From assembly GCA_037478855.1 (NCBI GenBank), contig JBBFLY010000005.1, forward strand, positions 206 to 64,205: DNA of 64,000 nt, written 5' to 3'. Of this stretch, positions 1,008 to 7,713 are shown one piece after another. The translations under genes and the position numbers were made by a program. How positions within the stretch are numbered: position 1 is the stretch's first letter; each line of letters opens with the position of its first letter. Source of the DNA: Acidimicrobiales bacterium (GTDB taxonomy: Bacteria > Actinomycetota > Acidimicrobiia > Acidimicrobiales > Acidimicrobilacustridaceae). The notes beneath the pieces are model-generated. The model made no database searches, had not been told where the DNA came from, and saw nothing but the letters and a program-made list of their open reading frames with translations.

Positions 1008-2321
1008 GTGCCGACCTACCAACCGGGCGTGCTCGGTCCGCTCCCCCGCGACCCCGACCAGCAGTTCTGGGACCCCGAGATGCAGACGATGCCACGCGAG
1101 CAACTCGAGGCGCTGCAGCTCGAGCGGCTCCGCACGCTGGTCGACCGGGCGCTGAGCACCCCCGTGCCGCTCTTTGCCCGCAAGCTTCGCGAGGCGGGGA
1201 TCGAATCCGGTGCAGACCTCACCAGCGTGGGAGACGTGAACCTCATCCCCACGACGGTCAAGCAGGAGCTTCGCGACTCGGAAGCTGAGCATCCCCCCTT
1301 CGGCGACTACCGCTTCACCAACCCACGGAAGTGCGTCCGGCTCGGCCAGAGCACGGGCACCACCGGCACACCCACCATCGCGCTGTTCACCCGCAAGGAC
1401 ATCTGGATCGAGTACGAGTCCGCGGCACGGGTGTGGTGGCGGAACGGCTGGCGCCCAGGGCAGATCATCACCCACGCCCACCCCGCCTACCTCTACGGCG
1501 GCGGCGTGATGCTCTCCGGCAGCCTCGAGTACTTCGGGGCGCTGAACCTGTGGGTTCCCCCACCCGACACCGACGAGCTCGCCGAGCAGGGCATCAGGAT
1601 GTGGCAGCGGGTGCGGCCCGACGTGTCGATGGTGGCGTTCAGCCTCGGTCGCTTCCAGGAGGTGGCTGCCAAGATGGGGCTCGACCTGAACGCGGACGTC
1701 GGTCTGCCGTCGTTCCAACTTCGGGGCGCGAGCGAGCGGGGCCTGCCGCTGATGACCGCCGGTCTCGAGTGCTACGCCTACTCGTCAGGTCCCTGCGGCG
1801 TCGCACCCGGCGGCCACATCCACGAGGACTGGGCGATCATTCAGGCCGTCGACCCCAGGACCGGCCGCGACGTGCCCGACGGGGAGTGGGGAAACCTGGT
1901 GGTCACCACCCTCGATCGCGACAACGGCCTGCTGCGCTACGACCTGGAAGAGGCCGCGGCGATCATCCGGGAGCCCTGCCCCTGCGGTGAGACCACCATC
2001 CGGGGCTTCTGGGGTGGTCGGTTCAAGGACTTCCTCGACTGCCAGGGCAGGTACTTCCCGATCAACGACGTCGAGCGAGCCCTGCGCACCGTGCGCGAGG
2101 TCGTCGAACCGTCCCTCGAGTACGTGGTGGTCAGACCGACGGATCCCGCCGCGCCGCTCTCCGTGCGGGTCGAGCTGGCCGACGGTCACGCCCCCACGGT
2201 GGCCGAGCGCTGCGCCGCCGCGATCCGCGAGCAGCTCGGGGTCGAAGCCCGGATCGACGTGCTGCCCCGCGGGTCGCTCGGCCGCTCGGGCTACAAAGCC
2301 ATCCGGCTCGTCGAGAGCTGA
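1008..2321 (+). CDS. Phenylacetate-CoA ligase-like (PaaK / coenzyme F390 synthetase family) adenylate-forming enzyme
   Basis: 437-aa ORF. The N-terminus FWDPEMQTMPREQLEALQLERLRTLVDRAL and the stretch RLGQSTGTTGTPT resemble PaaK-family ligases. Confidence 0.7.
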   Translation: MPTYQPGVLGPLPRDPDQQFWDPEMQTMPREQLEALQLERLRTLVDRALSTPVPLFARKLREAGIESGADLTSVGDVNLIPTTVKQELRDSEAEHPPFGDYRFTNPRKCVRLGQSTGTTGTPTIALFTRKDIWIEYESAARVWWRNGWRPGQIITHAHPAYLYGGGVMLSGSLEYFGALNLWVPPPDTDELAEQGIRMWQRVRPDVSMVAFSLGRFQEVAAKMGLDLNADVGLPSFQLRGASERGLPLMTAGLECYAYSSGPCGVAPGGHIHEDWAIIQAVDPRTGRDVPDGEWGNLVVTTLDRDNGLLRYDLEEAAAIIREPCPCGETTIRGFWGGRFKDFLDCQGRYFPINDVERALRTVREVVEPSLEYVVVRPTDPAAPLSVRVELADGHAPTVAERCAAAIREQLGVEARIDVLPRGSLGRSGYKAIRLVES

Positions 2322-2371
2322 GCAGCACCATCGGACGCTCGGACATCCGCCCGGCCGCAGCCGCGACACGA

Positions 2372-5300
2372 TCAACCAGCCCGCGGAGTCCGACCTTCGG
2401 TCGCGGCCCCGGAGGCCAGGTTCCGGATCCACGCCGGCGACGGCACCTGGAAGGGCCGGAAGCGCACCACCTTCCCGGACAGCTCGTCATAGAGCAGCGC
2501 CTGGGTGGGCTGCAGCGACGCAGCGGCGGGGCTGTCGACGATCCGCACCGCCTCCTCCCCGGACATGGGACCCACGACCCGCAGCGCGAACCTGCTCTGC
2601 AGGGACGGCGCGAGCCGCTCGCTGACGGCGGCGGCGGAGCTGGCCCACACGAGCGTGTGGAGACCGGATGCGGGACCCTCGCTGACGAGCACCTCGAGCA
2701 AGGCGGTGGCCTCGCCTCCGTCCGGGTCGAGTGCACGGGCGACGTCGAGCCCGTTGAGCACCACCAGCGCAGGGGGCTCTCGGCCCGATGCAGCCTGCCG
2801 GCGCCGGGTGAGCTCGCGGGCGGCCGCTTGCAGACCGGAGACGAGATCACGCTGACGAGACACCTGCACCCGCGTCAGCGCCCCGAGGGCCACGAGCACC
2901 TCCCCGAAGCCGGATTCCAACGGCATGCAGTCGATGGCTCGGACCTCGAGGTGGTGACCGTGTGCGACCGCGGCGGAGAGCAGCGCGCTCGCCAGCAGCC
3001 CTTGGCCGGCCTGCTCGTCGGCGGTCACCACCAACAGGTTCGCACCGGCCTCACGCCGAAGGACGACCTCCGTCGGTCCGCCCAACGTGACGGGCGCACC
3101 CAGCCACAGCACGAGGCCGTCCCCGACGTCGCGACCTGCTCCCGAGCCTCGGAGCTGCTCCACCAGGGGTTGATCCAGCTCCGCAGGGGCGATGCTCGAG
3201 ACCAGCTCCGGGCGGCGGGTGAACCCGCGCGAGTCCGCCAGCGCGTCGAGGTCACGCAGGTGCAACAGCCGTTCACGCGGGCTGATGCGACCCAGGCGGA
3301 GCCGGAGCGGATCGGTCGTGCCGGGCTGGATCAGCAGCGCCTCTCCATCGCCCATCGAACGAATCGAGGCGGTCAGCTCCGCATCGCTGTCGGGCATCGC
3401 CAGCGCCTCCGCGTCCGACAGGATCAGCGAGGTGCTGAGCGCGTCAGGTACCCAGGAGATCGGATCGAGCGAGTCGGCGATCCGCTCAAGGGCGATCACG
3501 TGCACCCCCAACGCCGGCCCCTCGACCAGCACCCGGTCGAGCAGCTCGCGGGCGTCCCGTGCCGAGCGACCCGTCCCGCACAGCAGCCTGCTGCCACCCA
3601 CGAGGATCAGCAGCAGTCGGGACAGCGGGCCTCCGGTGACGCAGCGGAAGGCCTCGAGGTCACCACGGTCGACCCCCGCGGCGCGCAGCAGCGTGACCCG
3701 CAGGTCGATCTCCGCCTCCACCAGCTCCAGCACGGCCAACCCCAGCTCGGCCTCAGCCTCCGTCGCCACCAAGCGGGCGTGAGGCAGCCGAGCACGCCCG
3801 TAGGTGCCGAGATCGATTGAGTGCGAGAGGTCGGCGAGGATCAGCTCCAGCTCGGTCGGCTCGTAGAGGAGGGTGACCGAGGTGAGAAGCAGGTCCAGTG
3901 CGTGGTCGAGCTCCCTGCTGGCTCCGCCGACCACGAGCGCGCCCGGCGCATCAGCTGAGTCCAGCCACAGCGTGGCCGGCTGACGGCCCGCGACCCGACC
4001 AAGCGGGATGGACACCCCCTCCCGCGTGTCGCCGGACCACCAGGTGCGTGGATCTGAGGCGTTCACGGGGTGGCGCAGGCGAGGAAGATCGTCGCGCACC
4101 GCGCGCTGGCGAGCCTGGTCGACCAGCGTGAGCACCTCGGCGAGGCCGAGCGGGGTGCGGTTCCGTCGGCGGGCGTGGTTGCCGACCATGGTGACCACCC
4201 GCTCGGTGATCGCCGCAGCCGGTCCCTCCGCATCGGCGGGAGGGGCGGGTTCGAAGCGGAGGCGCCATGAGCCGGTCCGGTGGGTCTCGACCGTGAAGCC
4301 GTCGGCGTCATGTCGGCAGATGCGCAGGCCTGGTAGTACCGGCTGGCGGCCCCGGGCCCGGGACGCGGCTGGATCGCGCAGGACGATGGTGTGGACCCCA
4401 CAGCGCGGTCCGTTCTCGGCGAGGGGGCCGAGCAGCTCCAGCGCCCGCTCCGTCATCCCGGTTGGGTAGTCGGCGATGACCAGCAGGCGGTACGGCTCGA
4501 TCACCTCTCCCAGGTCGAGGTGGGCGTCGGTGATGCTCGGGTACCGTCCCTGCAGGTGGGTTGCGATCACCCGCTCGACGTGGCGGGTCAGCTCTTCCAG
4601 GCACTCCTCGATCTCATCGGCCTCGATTCGCACGCCGCCCGACACCAGCGCCGGGTCGAACTCCGCCAGCGCCAGAAACGGAGCGAAGGTGTCACCGAGG
4701 CCTTTGGGGTCGACGAGCGAGAGGTGCACCCCACCGGGGGGGACCGCGGTGAGCACACGGGTGATGACCCCCTGGATCCCGGCCACCGCTTCGTCGCGCC
4801 GCACCCCGGTCTCCACCAGGATCCCGAGGCCGTCCCGCAGTGAACCGAGCCAGGGAAGCGCGACGTCAGGCAGCTCGTCGTGGACGAGCGCGCCGAGACG
4901 GATCCACGGCTTCGGCACCTCGGCGGGCTCGAGGGTGGCCCACCGCTCGTCGTCCCACGGAGCGCCTGCCACGGGGAGTGCCCGGGCGAGACTGTCGAGA
5001 TCCCGTTGGAGGATCATGGTGCCGATCTCGAAGCTGGCTCGGGCCTCGGTGCCCTCGGCCACCAGCTCCTGCTCGGTCTCCGACAACAGCCGTTGGCGGG
5101 TGCGCTCAGCCTCCTGCTCCATCAGCTCGAGGCGCGCCGCGGCCGAGTTGAGCAACACGCCGATCTCAGGCAGGCGGATCGCGCCAGTGATGCCCTGCGC
5201 CAGGCGCAGCTGCTCCTCGAGCCGGGCGATCAGCCGGTCGAAGCCGTCGGGTCGATCCCGGTCCTCGGTGCCCAGCGTGGCCGGTCGGGCCAGCGCCGTC

Positions 5301-5632
5301 TCGAGCACGTCGGACTTGCCCTTGCGGAGCGCGACCTCACGGGCCTGCTGGAAGAGCGCAGCCAAGCGCTCGGTGCCCTGCGCGACAGCTGCCTGCTGGG
5401 CACGCCAGCGCTCTTCGATGCGCTGCTGCTCCTCAGCCTGATCGCGCTCGAGACCGGCCACGTCGGCGTGGAGGGTGTCGAGCAGGTGGGAGGCCCGCTC
5501 GAGCAGCTCGTCCACGACCGCCAGCGGATCGGTGTCGAGTCCGCGGGGTCTCACCCCTACCCGGTTGGGGAGAGGCGGGAGCTTCGAGCTGTCGTCTCTG
5601 CGACCAGGTGCGTCCGCGAGCGCGCTCGTCAT
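2372..5632 (-). CDS. Large cytoplasmic FtsK/SpoIIIE (EccC-like) family protein with an N-terminal coiled coil and three P-loop-like domains that have degenerate Walker A sites
   Basis: 1086-aa ORF with normal coding composition. It has three repeats of the FtsK-domain pattern, e.g. IPLGRVAGRQPATLWLDSADAPGALVVGGASRELDHALDLLLTSV...LELILADL...LPHARLVAT. The GxxGxGK(S/T) position reads ETGVRRDEA, GGASRELD and TADEQAGQG in the three domains. No hydrophobic TM segment is visible in the N-terminal 250 aa, which is rich in E/R/L/A/Q heptad-like sequence. Confidence 0.6.
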   Translation of the reverse strand: MTSALADAPGRRDDSSKLPPLPNRVGVRPRGLDTDPLAVVDELLERASHLLDTLHADVAGLERDQAEEQQRIEERWRAQQAAVAQGTERLAALFQQAREVALRKGKSDVLETALARPATLGTEDRDRPDGFDRLIARLEEQLRLAQGITGAIRLPEIGVLLNSAAARLELMEQEAERTRQRLLSETEQELVAEGTEARASFEIGTMILQRDLDSLARALPVAGAPWDDERWATLEPAEVPKPWIRLGALVHDELPDVALPWLGSLRDGLGILVETGVRRDEAVAGIQGVITRVLTAVPPGGVHLSLVDPKGLGDTFAPFLALAEFDPALVSGGVRIEADEIEECLEELTRHVERVIATHLQGRYPSITDAHLDLGEVIEPYRLLVIADYPTGMTERALELLGPLAENGPRCGVHTIVLRDPAASRARGRQPVLPGLRICRHDADGFTVETHRTGSWRLRFEPAPPADAEGPAAAITERVVTMVGNHARRRNRTPLGLAEVLTLVDQARQRAVRDDLPRLRHPVNASDPRTWWSGDTREGVSIPLGRVAGRQPATLWLDSADAPGALVVGGASRELDHALDLLLTSVTLLYEPTELELILADLSHSIDLGTYGRARLPHARLVATEAEAELGLAVLELVEAEIDLRVTLLRAAGVDRGDLEAFRCVTGGPLSRLLLILVGGSRLLCGTGRSARDARELLDRVLVEGPALGVHVIALERIADSLDPISWVPDALSTSLILSDAEALAMPDSDAELTASIRSMGDGEALLIQPGTTDPLRLRLGRISPRERLLHLRDLDALADSRGFTRRPELVSSIAPAELDQPLVEQLRGSGAGRDVGDGLVLWLGAPVTLGGPTEVVLRREAGANLLVVTADEQAGQGLLASALLSAAVAHGHHLEVRAIDCMPLESGFGEVLVALGALTRVQVSRQRDLVSGLQAAARELTRRRQAASGREPPALVVLNGLDVARALDPDGGEATALLEVLVSEGPASGLHTLVWASSAAAVSERLAPSLQSRFALRVVGPMSGEEAVRIVDSPAAASLQPTQALLYDELSGKVVRFRPFQVPSPAWIRNLASGAATEGRTPRAG

Positions 5633-5713
5633 GCCAACCAGGTTCGATCGTGCACGAAGGCGGTATCGGCAGATCGGATCGCCGAGCTGAGGGTTTCGCC
5701 GCAGCTCGTGCGC

Positions 5714-6910
5714 TCAGGGGTCGGCGGGCAGCACGACCTCGGGGAGGGGATGGCGGTACAGCCGAGCGGCGTTCTCACAGCACATGGCCCGCAGCTCGTG
5801 CGCGGGCAGGTGGCCCCAGCAGCGTTCGATCACGTCCTGGGTGTCGGGCCAGGTGCCGTCGCCGTGGGGGTAGTCGGCCTCGAGCATGATGTTCTCCACC
5901 CCGATCGTGTGCCGGGTCTCGATGGTCGAGGGGTCGTCCAGGGTGCAGAACCAGAAGTTGCGCCGCAGCACGTCCGCGGGTCGCATGGGCCAGTCGGCGG
6001 CGTAGCCGGAGCGGTCGACGATGTTGTCGAGCCGATCGATGAGCATCGCCACCCAGCCGATGCCACCCTCCGACATGGCGATGCGCAGCTCGGGCAGCTT
6101 CAGGGCCCAACCCGACCACAGCCACTCGGCGCACGCAGTGAGCGACAGCTGCCCGAACAGGGTGGCGGTGAGCGGCACGGCCACGTCCCAGCACCCGTCG
6201 GGGAGGTCCCCGAGCCCCGAGGAGCCGACGTGGAGGCTCACCACCGTGTCGGTCTCGGCGCAGGCCCGCAGGATCGGCTCCCAGTAGGGGTCGAAGATCG
6301 AGGGCAGCCCGAGCCGGTGCGGGCGCTCCGGCAGGGTCACCGACCGGAAGCCCCGCTCGGCGTTGCGGCGGATCTCGGCGGCGCCGGCCTCGGGGTCGGT
6401 GAGGAACGTGATCCCGAGCGGGATGATCCGCTCGGGATGGGGCTGCCACCACTCCTCGTAGAGCCAGTCGTTCCACGCGCGGGTCACCGCGAGGCCGAGC
6501 TCGGGGTCCGAGCACTGCGAGAAGACCCGGCCGCAGAAGCCGGTGATCATCGACGGGAAGTTGAGCGACGCCCACACCCCGTTGATGTCCATGTCCCGCA
6601 CCCGGGCGTCGACGTCCCAGCAGCCGCGGCGCATCTCGTCGAAGCGGAACGGCTCGATCCGCACCGTCTCCGGCCGGCGGCCCGCGACGGCGTTCATGCC
6701 GACCTGGCTGTAGGTGCGACCGTCGAAGGCCCAGACCTGGTGGCCGTGCTCATCCTCCACCACCCGGGGGGCGCGCTCGGCCAGCCGGGCGGGCAGCCGG
6801 CCCTCGAACATGTGGGGCGGCTCGACCAGGTGGTCGTCGACCGAGATGACGGTGTAGCGCACCGGCCGGGGCTCGGGCTCGGGCAGGAACAGCTCCTCGG
6901 TCGCGGTCAT
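5714..6910 (-). CDS. Amidohydrolase_2 (ACMSD/LigW-type metal-dependent hydrolase/decarboxylase) family protein, paralogue 1
   Basis: Within track ORF 5714..7438. The plausible start is MTATEELFLPEPEPRPVRYTVISVDDHLVEPPHMF (ATG at 6910, in frame). It has DYPHGDGTWP near the C-terminus and aligns along its length with the ORFs at 35266..36561 and 36580..37749. The upstream extension is Arg/Pro/Ser-rich junk overlapping the next gene. Confidence 0.75.
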   Translation of the reverse strand: MTATEELFLPEPEPRPVRYTVISVDDHLVEPPHMFEGRLPARLAERAPRVVEDEHGHQVWAFDGRTYSQVGMNAVAGRRPETVRIEPFRFDEMRRGCWDVDARVRDMDINGVWASLNFPSMITGFCGRVFSQCSDPELGLAVTRAWNDWLYEEWWQPHPERIIPLGITFLTDPEAGAAEIRRNAERGFRSVTLPERPHRLGLPSIFDPYWEPILRACAETDTVVSLHVGSSGLGDLPDGCWDVAVPLTATLFGQLSLTACAEWLWSGWALKLPELRIAMSEGGIGWVAMLIDRLDNIVDRSGYAADWPMRPADVLRRNFWFCTLDDPSTIETRHTIGVENIMLEADYPHGDGTWPDTQDVIERCWGHLPAHELRAMCCENAARLYRHPLPEVVLPADP

Positions 6911-7693: not shown

Positions 7694-7713
7694 ACCTGAC
7701 ACAGACGTCAGAT
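7694..7713. promoter_or_regulatory. Palindromic operator box 2: acc TGACA caga CGTCA gat
   Basis: Lies 33 bp upstream of the aldolase start (7661, -), between it and the stop of the upstream ACAD gene. Confidence 0.7.

What the first reader, a model, noticed from the sequence alone, without database searches (positions are those of the whole stretch)
2372..5632. 1086-aa FtsK/EccC-like protein with three P-loop-like domains that all lack a Walker A lysine, no TM segment, and a long N-terminal coiled coil
The protein repeats the FtsK/SpoIIIE domain pattern three times: a substrate-loop-like IPLG...LWLD, then the P-loop strand, then a hydrophobic-D Walker B-like strand. Where GxxGxGK(S/T) is expected, it reads ETGVRRDEA, VVGGASRELD and VVTADEQAGQG. 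I find no GK(S/T) in a P-loop context anywhere; the only GKS is in the coiled coil (RKGKSD). Canonical FtsK and EccC proteins are membrane-anchored and keep at least one active site. This one looks soluble and is preceded by about 230 aa of E/R/Q/L/A-rich heptad-like sequence. It sits alone, with no ESX/WXG, conjugation or division genes nearby, next to the catabolic cluster and without a palindromic box. It may be a catalytically dead scaffold derived from a translocase, of unknown role.
Basis: partly seen in the sequence, partly recalled or inferred. Interest (0 to 1): 0.6.

Follow-up and report, generated by a model that had tools for sequence, protein, structure and literature searches.

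The report
Orphan all-dead EccC-like pseudo-ATPase
This gene encodes a soluble relative of the motor of type VII protein-secretion systems in which every ATP-binding site is destroyed. It is still kept intact by selection in a few Acidimicrobiales bacteria, so it probably works by binding partners rather than by pumping.

Summary
Window 2372-5632 (-) is an intact 1086-codon ORF. The protein has a disordered tail, a roughly 180-residue antiparallel helical hairpin and three tandem FtsK/EccC-fold modules. It has no TM segment and no P-loop lysine.

Comparison refines the reading. The protein belongs to a large family (over 2,500 representatives) of three-module, EccC/EssC-like ATPases. In that family modules 1 and 3 are always degenerate and only module 2 is catalytic. 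Active relatives sit in operons with WXG100 or WXG100-like small proteins, and one also has an ADP-ribosyltransferase-domain protein. They are therefore type VII-like export motors.

The window's protein falls in one well-supported clade of about 25 sequence clusters, nearly all from Acidimicrobiales. This clade also lost the module-2 Walker A Lys, Walker B Glu and sensor Gln.

The clade has no conserved gene neighbours. Most carrier genomes have no active paralogue, and the window's genome has no WXG100 gene. It is under purifying selection (dN/dS 0.14-0.24). Its most conserved blocks are two clade-specific motifs in the N-terminal hairpin.

Best reading: a non-catalytic pseudo-ATPase adaptor or scaffold descended from a type VII-like motor. 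Its partner is unknown. I rate it a new variant of a known kind, of moderate interest.

The parts
2372..5632 (-). Whole ORF, 1086 aa plus stop: soluble three-module EccC-like pseudo-ATPase
5558..5581 (-). Conserved short motif LPPLPNRV (aa 18-25; clade consensus LxPLPKRV) in the disordered N-terminal tail; candidate docking peptide
   Evidence: Nearly invariant L18, P20, P22, R24, V25; pLDDT 30-40. The docking role is an inference.
4979..5527 (-). N-terminal antiparallel helical hairpin (aa 36-218: H36-103, short helices, H150-218)
   Evidence: AF2 pLDDT above 90. No Pfam or PDB relative. Remote profile similarity to the N-terminal regions of soluble active relatives. Lowest dN/dS of the four regions, 0.08-0.14.
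5150..5209 (-). Clade-specific conserved block LxxAxGITGAIRLxxIxxLL (aa 142-161)
   Evidence: Second most conserved 20-residue window of the clade. Used as a clade-specific search pattern. Absent from 124 active relatives.
4997..5056 (-). Clade-specific conserved block ExxEARASFEIGxxxLxRDL (aa 193-212)
   Evidence: Most conserved window of the clade.
4103..4915 (-). Module D1 (aa 240-510): degenerate ATPase fold resembling the EccC 'DUF' domain. It is degenerate in the whole family.
   Evidence: Comparison with the EccC5 DUF domain in PMC11154593.
4787..4813 (-). D1 ex-P-loop ETGVRRDEA (aa 274-282), with clade-invariant R279
4457..4486 (-). D1 Walker-B-like strand LLVIADYPTG (aa 383-392). D388 and P390 are invariant and there is no catalytic Glu.
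3218..4072 (-). Module D2 (aa 521-805): homologue of the single catalytic module of the parent family, here inactivated
   Evidence: Pfam PF01580; EccC D1/D2 alignments; column counts
3905..3934 (-). D2 ex-Walker A VVGGASRELD (aa 567-576). The Lys column is Leu and the Ser/Thr column is Asp.
3584..3616 (-). D2 ex-Walker B LLLILVGGSRL (aa 673-683). The Asp-Glu pair has become Val-Gly.
2396..3127 (-). Module D3 (aa 836-1079): degenerate ATPase fold, degenerate in the whole family
2999..3031 (-). D3 ex-P-loop VVTADEQAGQG (aa 868-878)
2741..2770 (-). D3 Walker-B-like strand ALVVLNGLDV (aa 955-964). The Asp-Glu pair has become Asn-Gly.

Best explanation
The gene encodes a soluble pseudo-ATPase. It descends from a widespread family of three-module EccC/EssC-like ATPases with the layout degenerate, catalytic, degenerate. 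That family works with WXG100-type small proteins and toxins, so it is a type VII-like export family.

In one lineage, found almost only in Acidimicrobiales, the single catalytic module lost the Walker A Lys, the Walker B Glu (and, in this protein, the Asp too) and the sensor Gln. The gene also left its secretion operon.

**Shown here**
- homology and fold
- coordinated loss of the catalytic residues
- a single origin of the dead clade
- absence of a TM segment
- absence of conserved neighbours
- absence of an active paralogue or WXG100 gene in this genome
- purifying selection on all four regions

**Inferred**
- The protein can no longer hydrolyse ATP, and probably cannot bind it.
- It acts by protein-protein binding, as an adaptor or scaffold.
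- It keeps the inter-module architecture, and perhaps ring assembly, of its ancestors.
- It engages an unknown partner through the highly conserved N-terminal hairpin motifs (GITGAIRLP, EARASFEIG) and the LxPLPKRV tail.
For: - **Family and fold.** PF01580 matches D2. The profile finds EccC 4nh0 at E 4e-30 and aligns the P-loop and Walker B columns. Foldseek aligns all three modules to EccC at E 4e-27. The modules match each other internally.
- **Parent family.** 2,554 representatives score E<1e-30. In 123 of 123 active relatives the D2 columns are K575, D678, E679 and Q717. In 21 dead-clade members K is present in one (P0033), E in 0, Q in 0 and D in 13.
- **Single origin.** The dead clade is one side of a branch with 100% support, which implies one change. 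Its sister is a soluble active group.
- **Type VII-like context of active relatives.** Two loci share the operon WXG100, ~200 aa, ~70 aa, ATPase. Sub-threshold WXG100-like neighbours occur in two more loci. One Acidimicrobiales locus also has a protein with an ART domain. The best NCBIfam matches are EccCa, EccCb and EssC.
- **Orphan status.** No neighbour family is conserved across 26 loci. The window's genome has only a true FtsK plus this gene, and no WXG100 above cut-off. Of 11 other carrier genomes, 8 likewise have only FtsK plus the dead gene.
- **Selection.** dN/dS is 0.14-0.24 overall. By region it is 0.08-0.14 for the N-domain, 0.10-0.19 for D1, 0.11-0.27 for D2 and 0.26-0.30 for D3.
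- **Conservation.** The most conserved blocks are N-terminal and clade-specific.
- **Precedent.** The EccC5 DUF domain has a similarly degenerate Walker A (GEREQVL, with an Arg-Asp salt bridge to the Walker B Asp) and does not bind ATP (PMC11154593).
Against: - No biochemical data exist, so loss of ATP binding is inferred from sequence alone.
- About half of the clade keeps a glycine-rich GxxGxG[VLI][ST] loop in D2, and 13 of 21 members keep the Walker B Asp. Some members might therefore still bind a nucleotide or phosphate.
- No partner was identified, and there is no operon context to suggest one.
- The gene is rare. In samples of 151 class genomes and 401 order genomes, the full-length form was found only in the window's own genus. 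The function is therefore dispensable for most relatives.
Confidence: 0.6

Rival explanations
1. It is still an NTPase or nucleotide-binding switch that uses a non-canonical site, for example Arg571 in GGASRELD, or the invariant R279/D388 pair of D1.
For: About half of the clade keeps a Gly-rich loop, and 13 of 21 members keep the Walker B Asp in D2. R279 and D388 in D1 are invariant in the clade. D2 is under purifying selection.
Against: - No alternative basic or acidic residue is conserved at the D2 site. The loop reads GPPGRGVST, GGASRELD, GDDRAVVSD, SHDTAGIDS and GDDDTALTT in different members.
- Four independent catalytic columns (K, E, Q and partly D) decay together.
- The equivalent Arg-Asp pair in the EccC5 DUF domain stabilises a helix that blocks the nucleotide site, and that domain does not bind ATP (PMC11154593).
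Confidence: 0.1
2. It is an accessory or regulatory subunit of a type VII-like secretion machine encoded elsewhere in the genome. It would dock on an active EccC-like ring, as degenerate EccC modules do in cis.
For: The parent family is type VII-like. Three of 11 carrier genomes have an additional multi-domain EccC-like gene.
Against: The window's genome is 99.4% complete and has no active EccC-like paralogue and no WXG100 gene above cut-off. Of the other carriers, 8 of 11 have only FtsK plus the dead gene. There is never any operon linkage.
Confidence: 0.1
3. It is a decaying relic, that is, a pseudogene in the making of a lost secretion system.
For: It is orphaned from its operon, the catalytic motifs are gone and the distribution is rare and patchy.
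Against: - The ORF is intact at 1086 codons.
- Length and architecture are kept across clade members that are only 35-45% identical.
- dN/dS is 0.14-0.24 in every region.
- New, highly conserved motifs exist.
Confidence: 0.04
4. It is an FtsK paralogue that acts on DNA in chromosome segregation or division.
For: The Pfam family is FtsK_SpoIIIE.
Against: - There is no gamma (KOPS-reading) domain, no TM anchor and no ATP site.
- The closest structures and curated models are protein-export EccC/EssC, not FtsK.
- A canonical FtsK is present elsewhere in the genome.
- The gene is rare in the order.
Confidence: 0.04

Closest known systems
EccC (T7SSa) and EssC/YukB (T7SSb) secretion ATPases, e.g. 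T. curvata EccC (PDB 4nh0, 4n1a), G. thermodenitrificans EssC (4lya), M. tuberculosis and M. xenopi EccC5 (7np7, 7b9f)
   Same: Both have tandem FtsK-fold modules. Both have a first, 'DUF'-like degenerate module with an Arg in the ex-P-loop and an Asp on the Walker-B strand, and a degenerate C-terminal module. These are the best sequence and fold matches.
   Different: This protein has three modules rather than four. It has no TM helices and no FHA domains. No module has a Walker A Lys or a Walker B Glu. It is not linked to WXG100, EccB/D/E or EssA/B genes. It does not reach any NCBIfam EccC/EssC cut-off.
Unnamed family of three-module (degenerate, active, degenerate) FtsK-like ATPases found next to WXG100 or WXG100-like genes. 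Examples are P0014, P0016 and P0017 (with TM) and P0015 and P0167 (soluble).
   Same: The D1-D2-D3 core is homologous over its full length, with profile scores of 510-720 bits (E 1e-148 to 1e-211). D1 and D3 are equally degenerate. The soluble subgroup is the sister clade and has a remotely similar N-terminal helical region.
   Different: In those proteins D2 has GxxGSGK[ST], hhhhDEF and a sensor Gln in 123 of 123 sequences. The loci examined are operonic with small helical proteins, and some also carry a toxin-domain or immunity-like gene. The window's clade has none of this. It has its own GITGAIR and EARASFEIG motifs instead.
EccC 'DUF' domain (degenerate ATPase domain, M. tuberculosis EccC5; PMC11154593)
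   Same: It is an FtsK-fold domain whose Walker A is degenerate, whose Arg pairs with the Walker-B Asp, and which does not bind ATP yet is functionally required. This is a precedent for dead modules doing structural or regulatory work.
   Different: It is one domain within an active, membrane-bound motor. Here the whole protein is dead and stands alone.
FtsK/SpoIIIE DNA translocases (PDB 2ius, 2iuu, 6t8b)
   Same: The RecA-like motor fold is shared, as is the conserved 'IPLG...LDL' strand pair before the P-loop.
   Different: This protein has no TM domain, no gamma domain, no ATP site and three tandem modules. Similarity is much weaker, E about 1e-4 against 1e-30 for EccC.

Membership tests
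FtsK/SpoIIIE superfamily (Pfam PF01580) | Profile match above the gathering score | tested here: met
   30.9 bits against a 24-bit cut-off, aa 557-658 in D2 only. The fold is confirmed for all three modules.
FtsK/SpoIIIE superfamily (Pfam PF01580) | Walker A GxxGxGK[S/T] | tested here: not met
   GGASRELD lies at the aligned position and no P-loop GK[ST] occurs anywhere.
FtsK/SpoIIIE superfamily (Pfam PF01580) | Walker B hhhhDE | tested here: not met
   The aligned position reads LILVGG, and the other modules read ADY and NGL.
FtsK proper (DNA translocase) | N-terminal membrane domain and C-terminal gamma winged-helix domain | tested here: not met
   There is no TM segment (maximum KD19 score 1.44) and no Ftsk_gamma hit.
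EccC/EssC type VII secretion ATPase | Tandem FtsK-like ATPase modules preceded by a degenerate DUF-like module | tested here: met
   Foldseek aligns 958 columns to 4nh0. D1 carries a DUF-like Arg/Asp pattern. There are three modules here rather than four.
EccC/EssC type VII secretion ATPase | Membrane anchor (two TM helices) | tested here: not met
EccC/EssC type VII secretion ATPase | At least one catalytically competent module (the EccC D1 equivalent) | tested here: not met
EccC/EssC type VII secretion ATPase | Genomic association with a WXG100 gene and other T7SS components | tested here: not met
   There are none in the neighbourhood or across 26 orthologous loci. The genome has no WXG100 above cut-off.
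EccC/EssC type VII secretion ATPase | Reaches the curated NCBIfam EccCa, EccCb or EssC score | tested here: not met
   P0001 has no NCBIfam hit at all. Active relatives score 75-127 bits against cut-offs of 347-778 bits.
Three-module WXG100-linked FtsK-like ATPase family (unnamed parent family) | Homologous D1-D2-D3 core | tested here: met
   Active relatives score 510-720 bits (E 1e-148 to 1e-211) over profile positions ~215-1077. The window's clade nests beside them in the tree.
Three-module WXG100-linked FtsK-like ATPase family (unnamed parent family) | Catalytic D2 (K, D, E and Q columns) | tested here: not met
Pseudoenzyme (pseudo-ATPase) | Homology to active enzymes, loss of catalytic residues and retention under purifying selection | tested here: met
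Pseudoenzyme (pseudo-ATPase) | Experimentally shown lack of ATP binding or hydrolysis | not testable with these tools
   This needs purified protein.
Known anti-phage defence proteins (PADLOC) | Match to a defence-system model | tested here: not met
   No hits at E up to 1.

The most novel reading that the evidence does not exclude
The dead protein is a cytoplasmic decoy or immunity-type receptor. It would keep the substrate-recognition surfaces of a type VII-like motor but not its engine. It could then capture WXG/LXG-type helical toxins by their conserved export signal. These would be toxins made by neighbours that carry the active sister system, such as the WXG-like plus ADP-ribosyltransferase operon seen in another Acidimicrobiales genome. 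Alternatively it could capture the cell's own stray helical-hairpin proteins. The N-terminal hairpin and the LxPLPKRV tail would pass the captured protein on to a partner. This would be a broad-spectrum defence that recognises the delivery signal rather than the toxin domain.
Probability: 0.06. Interest if true: 0.85.

Novelty: new variant of a known kind. Interest (0 to 1): 0.45.

Why it matters
Degenerate ATPase modules are known inside EccC/EssC motors, where they regulate or scaffold an active module. Here a whole three-module motor has gone catalytically dark. It has left its secretion operon and lacks both a membrane anchor and an active paralogue. Even so, it has been kept under purifying selection over deep divergence (35-45% identity), with new conserved motifs.

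That makes it a clean natural test case for two questions. What can the non-catalytic parts of type VII motors do on their own? How are secretion ATPases exapted into pseudoenzymes?

The work also exposes the parent family, which is large and poorly described. It consists of three-module, WXG100-linked ATPases, some of them soluble, in phyla outside the classic T7SS hosts. The practical importance of the dead clade itself is limited by its rarity.

Tried and rejected
- **Curated libraries.** NCBIfam and PADLOC scans of the protein found nothing. A direct phmmer search against PDB also found nothing; a profile was needed.
- **Conserved neighbours.** Four loci with precomputed Pfam hits, plus all-vs-all clustering of ORFs in 26 loci, showed nothing shared beyond local synteny.
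- **A stand-alone or differently fused N-domain.** The only hits were fragments of frameshifted copies. Pfam, a PDB profile search and Foldseek on a separate N-domain model found only generic antiparallel helical hairpins, none with E below 0.001.
- **My first reading of the N-domain as a new acquisition.** I based this on HMMER finding no match in 124 active relatives, then softened it. Profile-profile comparison gives 96.6% probability to the N-terminal regions of the soluble sister group. Helical, low-complexity composition may inflate that score.
- **The weak third PF01580 hit in the own genome.** It is an ABC transporter.
- **Plasmid association.** There is one distant Rhodococcus relative only.
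- **Promoter and terminator scan of 2200-5900.** It found nothing.
- **Housekeeping role in Acidimicrobiia.** I rejected this because the full-length gene was found only in the window's own genus among 151 class genomes and 401 order genomes.
Full report
**1. The observation**

Window 2372-5632 (-) is an uninterrupted ATG-started ORF of 1086 codons in 72% G+C DNA. Pfam finds one family, FtsK_SpoIIIE. It matches aa 557-658 to profile positions 33-132 at 30.9 bits, above the 24-bit gathering score. NCBIfam and PADLOC find nothing.

A profile of 12 orthologues (alignment A1) hits the cytoplasmic part of Thermomonospora curvata EccC (4nh0) at E 4e-30. It also hits mycobacterial EccC5, EssC/YukB and, much more weakly, FtsK. 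Those alignments place the protein's VVGGASRELD on the EccC Walker A (GxTGSGKS) and LLLILVGG on Walker B (hhhhDE).

Internal profile-profile comparison shows that the middle and last thirds are homologous (96% probability, E 4e-9). The first third aligns to the middle one in register from the P-loop position to Walker B (E 4e-4) and more partially to the last one (E 2e-4).

The AlphaFold model has mean pLDDT 80.7. It shows a disordered tail (aa 1-33), two ~68-residue helices (H36-103 and H150-218) and then three alpha/beta modules. Foldseek aligns 958 columns of the model to the three-ATPase EccC structure at E 4e-27.

There is no hydrophobic segment; the maximum 19-residue Kyte-Doolittle score is 1.44. 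The only GK[ST] is at aa 105, inside a helix. Only 81 nt separate the start codon from the stop of the preceding gene, and orthologues share the N-terminus. No upstream frameshifted TM region exists.

The only nuance is that the N-terminal region is an antiparallel helical hairpin with weak heptad periodicity.

**2. What family it belongs to**

A profile search of 1.84 billion representatives gave 17,475 hits, of which 2,554 were below 1e-30. The top ~25 representatives match over the full length, N-terminal region included. All further hits (950-1540 aa) match from about aa 215 to the end, which is the three-module core.

Motif extraction on a 150-sequence alignment shows a uniform pattern in this larger family. 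Module 1 is degenerate, with an 'xxRxxA' ex-P-loop and a 'DFP' Walker-B-like strand. Module 2 is canonical, with GxxGSGK[ST] and hhhhDEF. Module 3 is degenerate.

Column counts make the contrast explicit.

| D2 column | 123 active relatives | 21 dead-clade members |
|---|---|---|
| Walker A Lys (575) | 123 | 1 (P0033) |
| Walker B Asp (678) | 123 | 13 |
| Walker B Glu (679) | 123 | 0 |
| Sensor Gln (717) | 123 | 0 |

The window's protein is among the most decayed members, with GGASRELD and VG at the Walker A and B positions.

In a tree of the core region, the 22 dead representatives form one side of a branch with 100% support, so one change suffices. Their sister is a group of 34 TM-less but active proteins. 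One basal member, P0033, still has GSGKS but reads DA instead of DE. This hints at stepwise decay. The topology comes from FastTree only, so this point is tentative.

**3. What the parent family does**

Two TM-bearing active relatives, P0014 and P0016, lie in the same four-gene operon: WXG100 (~90 aa), ~200 aa, ~70 aa, ATPase.

A soluble active relative from an Acidimicrobiales genome (P0167, with GLPRSGKTT and MDEF) heads a tightly packed operon. Its 92-aa neighbour has WXG100 as best Pfam hit (E 8e-4, below cut-off). Two more small ORFs follow, and then a 306-aa protein with a C-terminal ADP-ribosyltransferase domain above the Pfam cut-off.

P0015 has an 89-aa neighbour with WXG100 as top hit (E 3.5e-4). 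A Longispora relative sits in a cluster that ends in a Barstar-like gene.

The best NCBIfam matches of these active proteins are EccCa, EccCb and EssC, far below the equivalog cut-offs. The parent family is thus a type VII-like export-ATPase family, distinct from curated EccC and EssC. I treat that as a parallel lead, not as support.

Module 1 resembles the EccC 'DUF' domain. In EccC5 the ex-Walker A reads GEREQVL, its Arg forms a salt bridge to the Walker-B Asp, and the domain does not bind ATP (PMC11154593). Here R279 and D388 are invariant in the clade. That they pair with each other is an inference.

**4. The dead clade itself**

A scan of one genome per species found 23 loci. All but one are from Acidimicrobiales bins or isolates: Rhabdothermincola and other Iamiaceae, Microthrixaceae, and unclassified Acidimicrobiales. 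The exception is a 'Thermoanaerobaculia' bin.

The gene is rare. In even samples of 151 class genomes and 401 order genomes, the full-length form was found only in the window's genus, in 3 of 3 genomes.

No neighbour family is conserved across 26 loci. The window's genome is 99.4% complete. It has one canonical FtsK, this gene and no WXG100 gene above cut-off; the third weak PF01580 hit is an ABC transporter. Eight of 11 other carrier genomes likewise have only FtsK plus the dead gene. The protein therefore does not depend on an active paralogue or on a recognisable type VII apparatus.

The gene is not decaying. The table gives Nei-Gojobori dN/dS for the window against two Rhabdothermincola orthologues and for those two against each other.

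| Region | dN/dS range |
|---|---|
| Whole gene | 0.14-0.24 |
| N-domain | 0.08-0.14 |
| D1 | 0.10-0.19 |
| D2 | 0.11-0.27 |
| D3 | 0.26-0.30 |

In a 26-sequence clade alignment, D2 is the least conserved region. The two most conserved 20-residue windows are both N-terminal: ExxEARASFEIGxxxLxRDL (193-212) and LxxAxGITGAIRLxxIxxLL (142-161).

An HMM of the N-domain matches only clade members among the 150 aligned sequences. It matches nothing in the neighbourhoods of active relatives. No stand-alone copy exists in 5.8 billion proteins. Pfam, PDB and Foldseek give no specific relative.

Profile-profile comparison does suggest remote homology to the N-terminal helical region of the soluble active sister group, at 96.6% probability and E 6e-10. 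The alignment ends in a shared 'LP...W..dp.W..W' junction. The hairpin is therefore probably inherited, while the GITGAIR and EARASFEIG motifs are innovations of the clade. Helical composition may inflate this score.

A short LxPLPKRV motif in the disordered tail is also nearly invariant. From general knowledge it fits a PxxPxR-type ligand pattern, but this was not tested.

**5. How it most likely works**

Shown here: the protein has the fold of a type VII-like motor but lacks every residue set that its 123 active relatives use for ATP binding and hydrolysis. It is soluble, orphaned and selectively maintained. Constraint is concentrated on a helical hairpin with new motifs.

Inferred: it acts without ATP turnover as an adaptor or scaffold. 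It would use the rigid three-module body, and possibly ring assembly, together with the hairpin and tail to bind an unidentified partner.

I put 0.6 on this combined statement. I put about 0.85 on 'non-catalytic derivative of a type VII-like ATPase kept by selection' and much less on any specific partner.

Four rivals remain:
- residual non-canonical nucleotide binding (0.1)
- an accessory subunit of a machine encoded elsewhere (0.1)
- a relic (0.04)
- a DNA-related FtsK-paralogue role (0.04)

The boldest reading not excluded is a cytoplasmic decoy for WXG/LXG-type toxins, recognised through their export signal (about 0.06).

**6. Local context**

The gene lies inside a large CoA-thioester catabolic cluster that is dotted with a TGACR-N4-YGTCA operator. 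I count 16 copies against 0.4 expected. None lies in the 81-nt upstream gap. One box (7697-7710) precedes the same-strand amidohydrolase gene immediately upstream, so read-through co-transcription is possible. That upstream neighbour differs in R. sediminis, so the link is not conserved. No sigma-70-like promoter or intrinsic terminator was detected.

**7. Novelty and score**

Dead modules within EccC and EssC are well documented. Three library searches found no description of a free-standing, entirely dead, soluble EccC-like protein. The library is partial, so this is not proof of absence.

I class the finding as a new variant of a known kind. Interest is 0.45. It is a clear and somewhat surprising pseudoenzyme case, with a tidy evolutionary story and testable predictions. 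Against that, it is rare, environmentally restricted and without a known partner or phenotype.

Noticed in passing
L038:2106-9276 (Acidimicrobiales genome G208, contig C36): A soluble active relative (P0167, 1093 aa) heads a translationally coupled operon. The operon holds a 92-aa WXG100-like protein (sub-threshold), two further small ORFs, and a 306-aa protein with a C-terminal ADP-ribosyltransferase domain above the Pfam cut-off. It looks like a TM-less type VII-like toxin-export locus.
   Followed up: partly
L006:8851-13957 and L036:6507-12033: The same four-gene operon occurs in two unrelated metagenomic or MAG contigs: WXG100 (~90 aa), ~200-aa protein, ~70-aa protein, then a 1318-1407-aa ATPase with TM helices embedded in a long N-terminal helical region. 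This appears to be a conserved minimal type VII-like system outside curated EccC and EssC.
   Followed up: partly
L007:6894-14477 (Longispora fulva): A 905-aa active relative lies in a cluster of HSP70-like, TPR and GrpE-like genes, then the ATPase, three small ORFs and a Barstar-like gene. The chaperone and secretion-ATPase pairing is unusual.
   Followed up: no
window 5558-5581 (aa 18-25): A nearly invariant LxPLPKRV motif sits in an otherwise variable, disordered N-terminal tail of the dead clade. It is a candidate short linear docking motif.
   Followed up: partly
window 7697-7710 and 5633-5713: An operator palindrome (one of 16 in the window) lies upstream of the same-strand amidohydrolase gene that ends 81 nt before the pseudo-ATPase start. 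Co-transcription under the catabolic regulon is possible. The upstream neighbour is not conserved in R. sediminis.
   Followed up: partly
L024, L028, L029, L032, L033, L035: Six of the 23 orthologous loci have the gene split by frame breaks. All six come from one long-contig MAG series (MFD isolates). Assembly indel errors are likely, but real pseudogenisation in some lineages was not excluded.
   Followed up: no
L029 (contig labelled Thermoanaerobaculia): This is the only dead-clade copy outside Acidimicrobiales. It lies at a contig end and is split by a frame break. It could be mis-binning or horizontal transfer.
   Followed up: no
P0033 (764-aa partial protein, basal in the dead clade): This member keeps GEPGSGKS in module 2 but has DA instead of DE at Walker B. 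It is a possible intermediate in the order of motif loss.
   Followed up: partly
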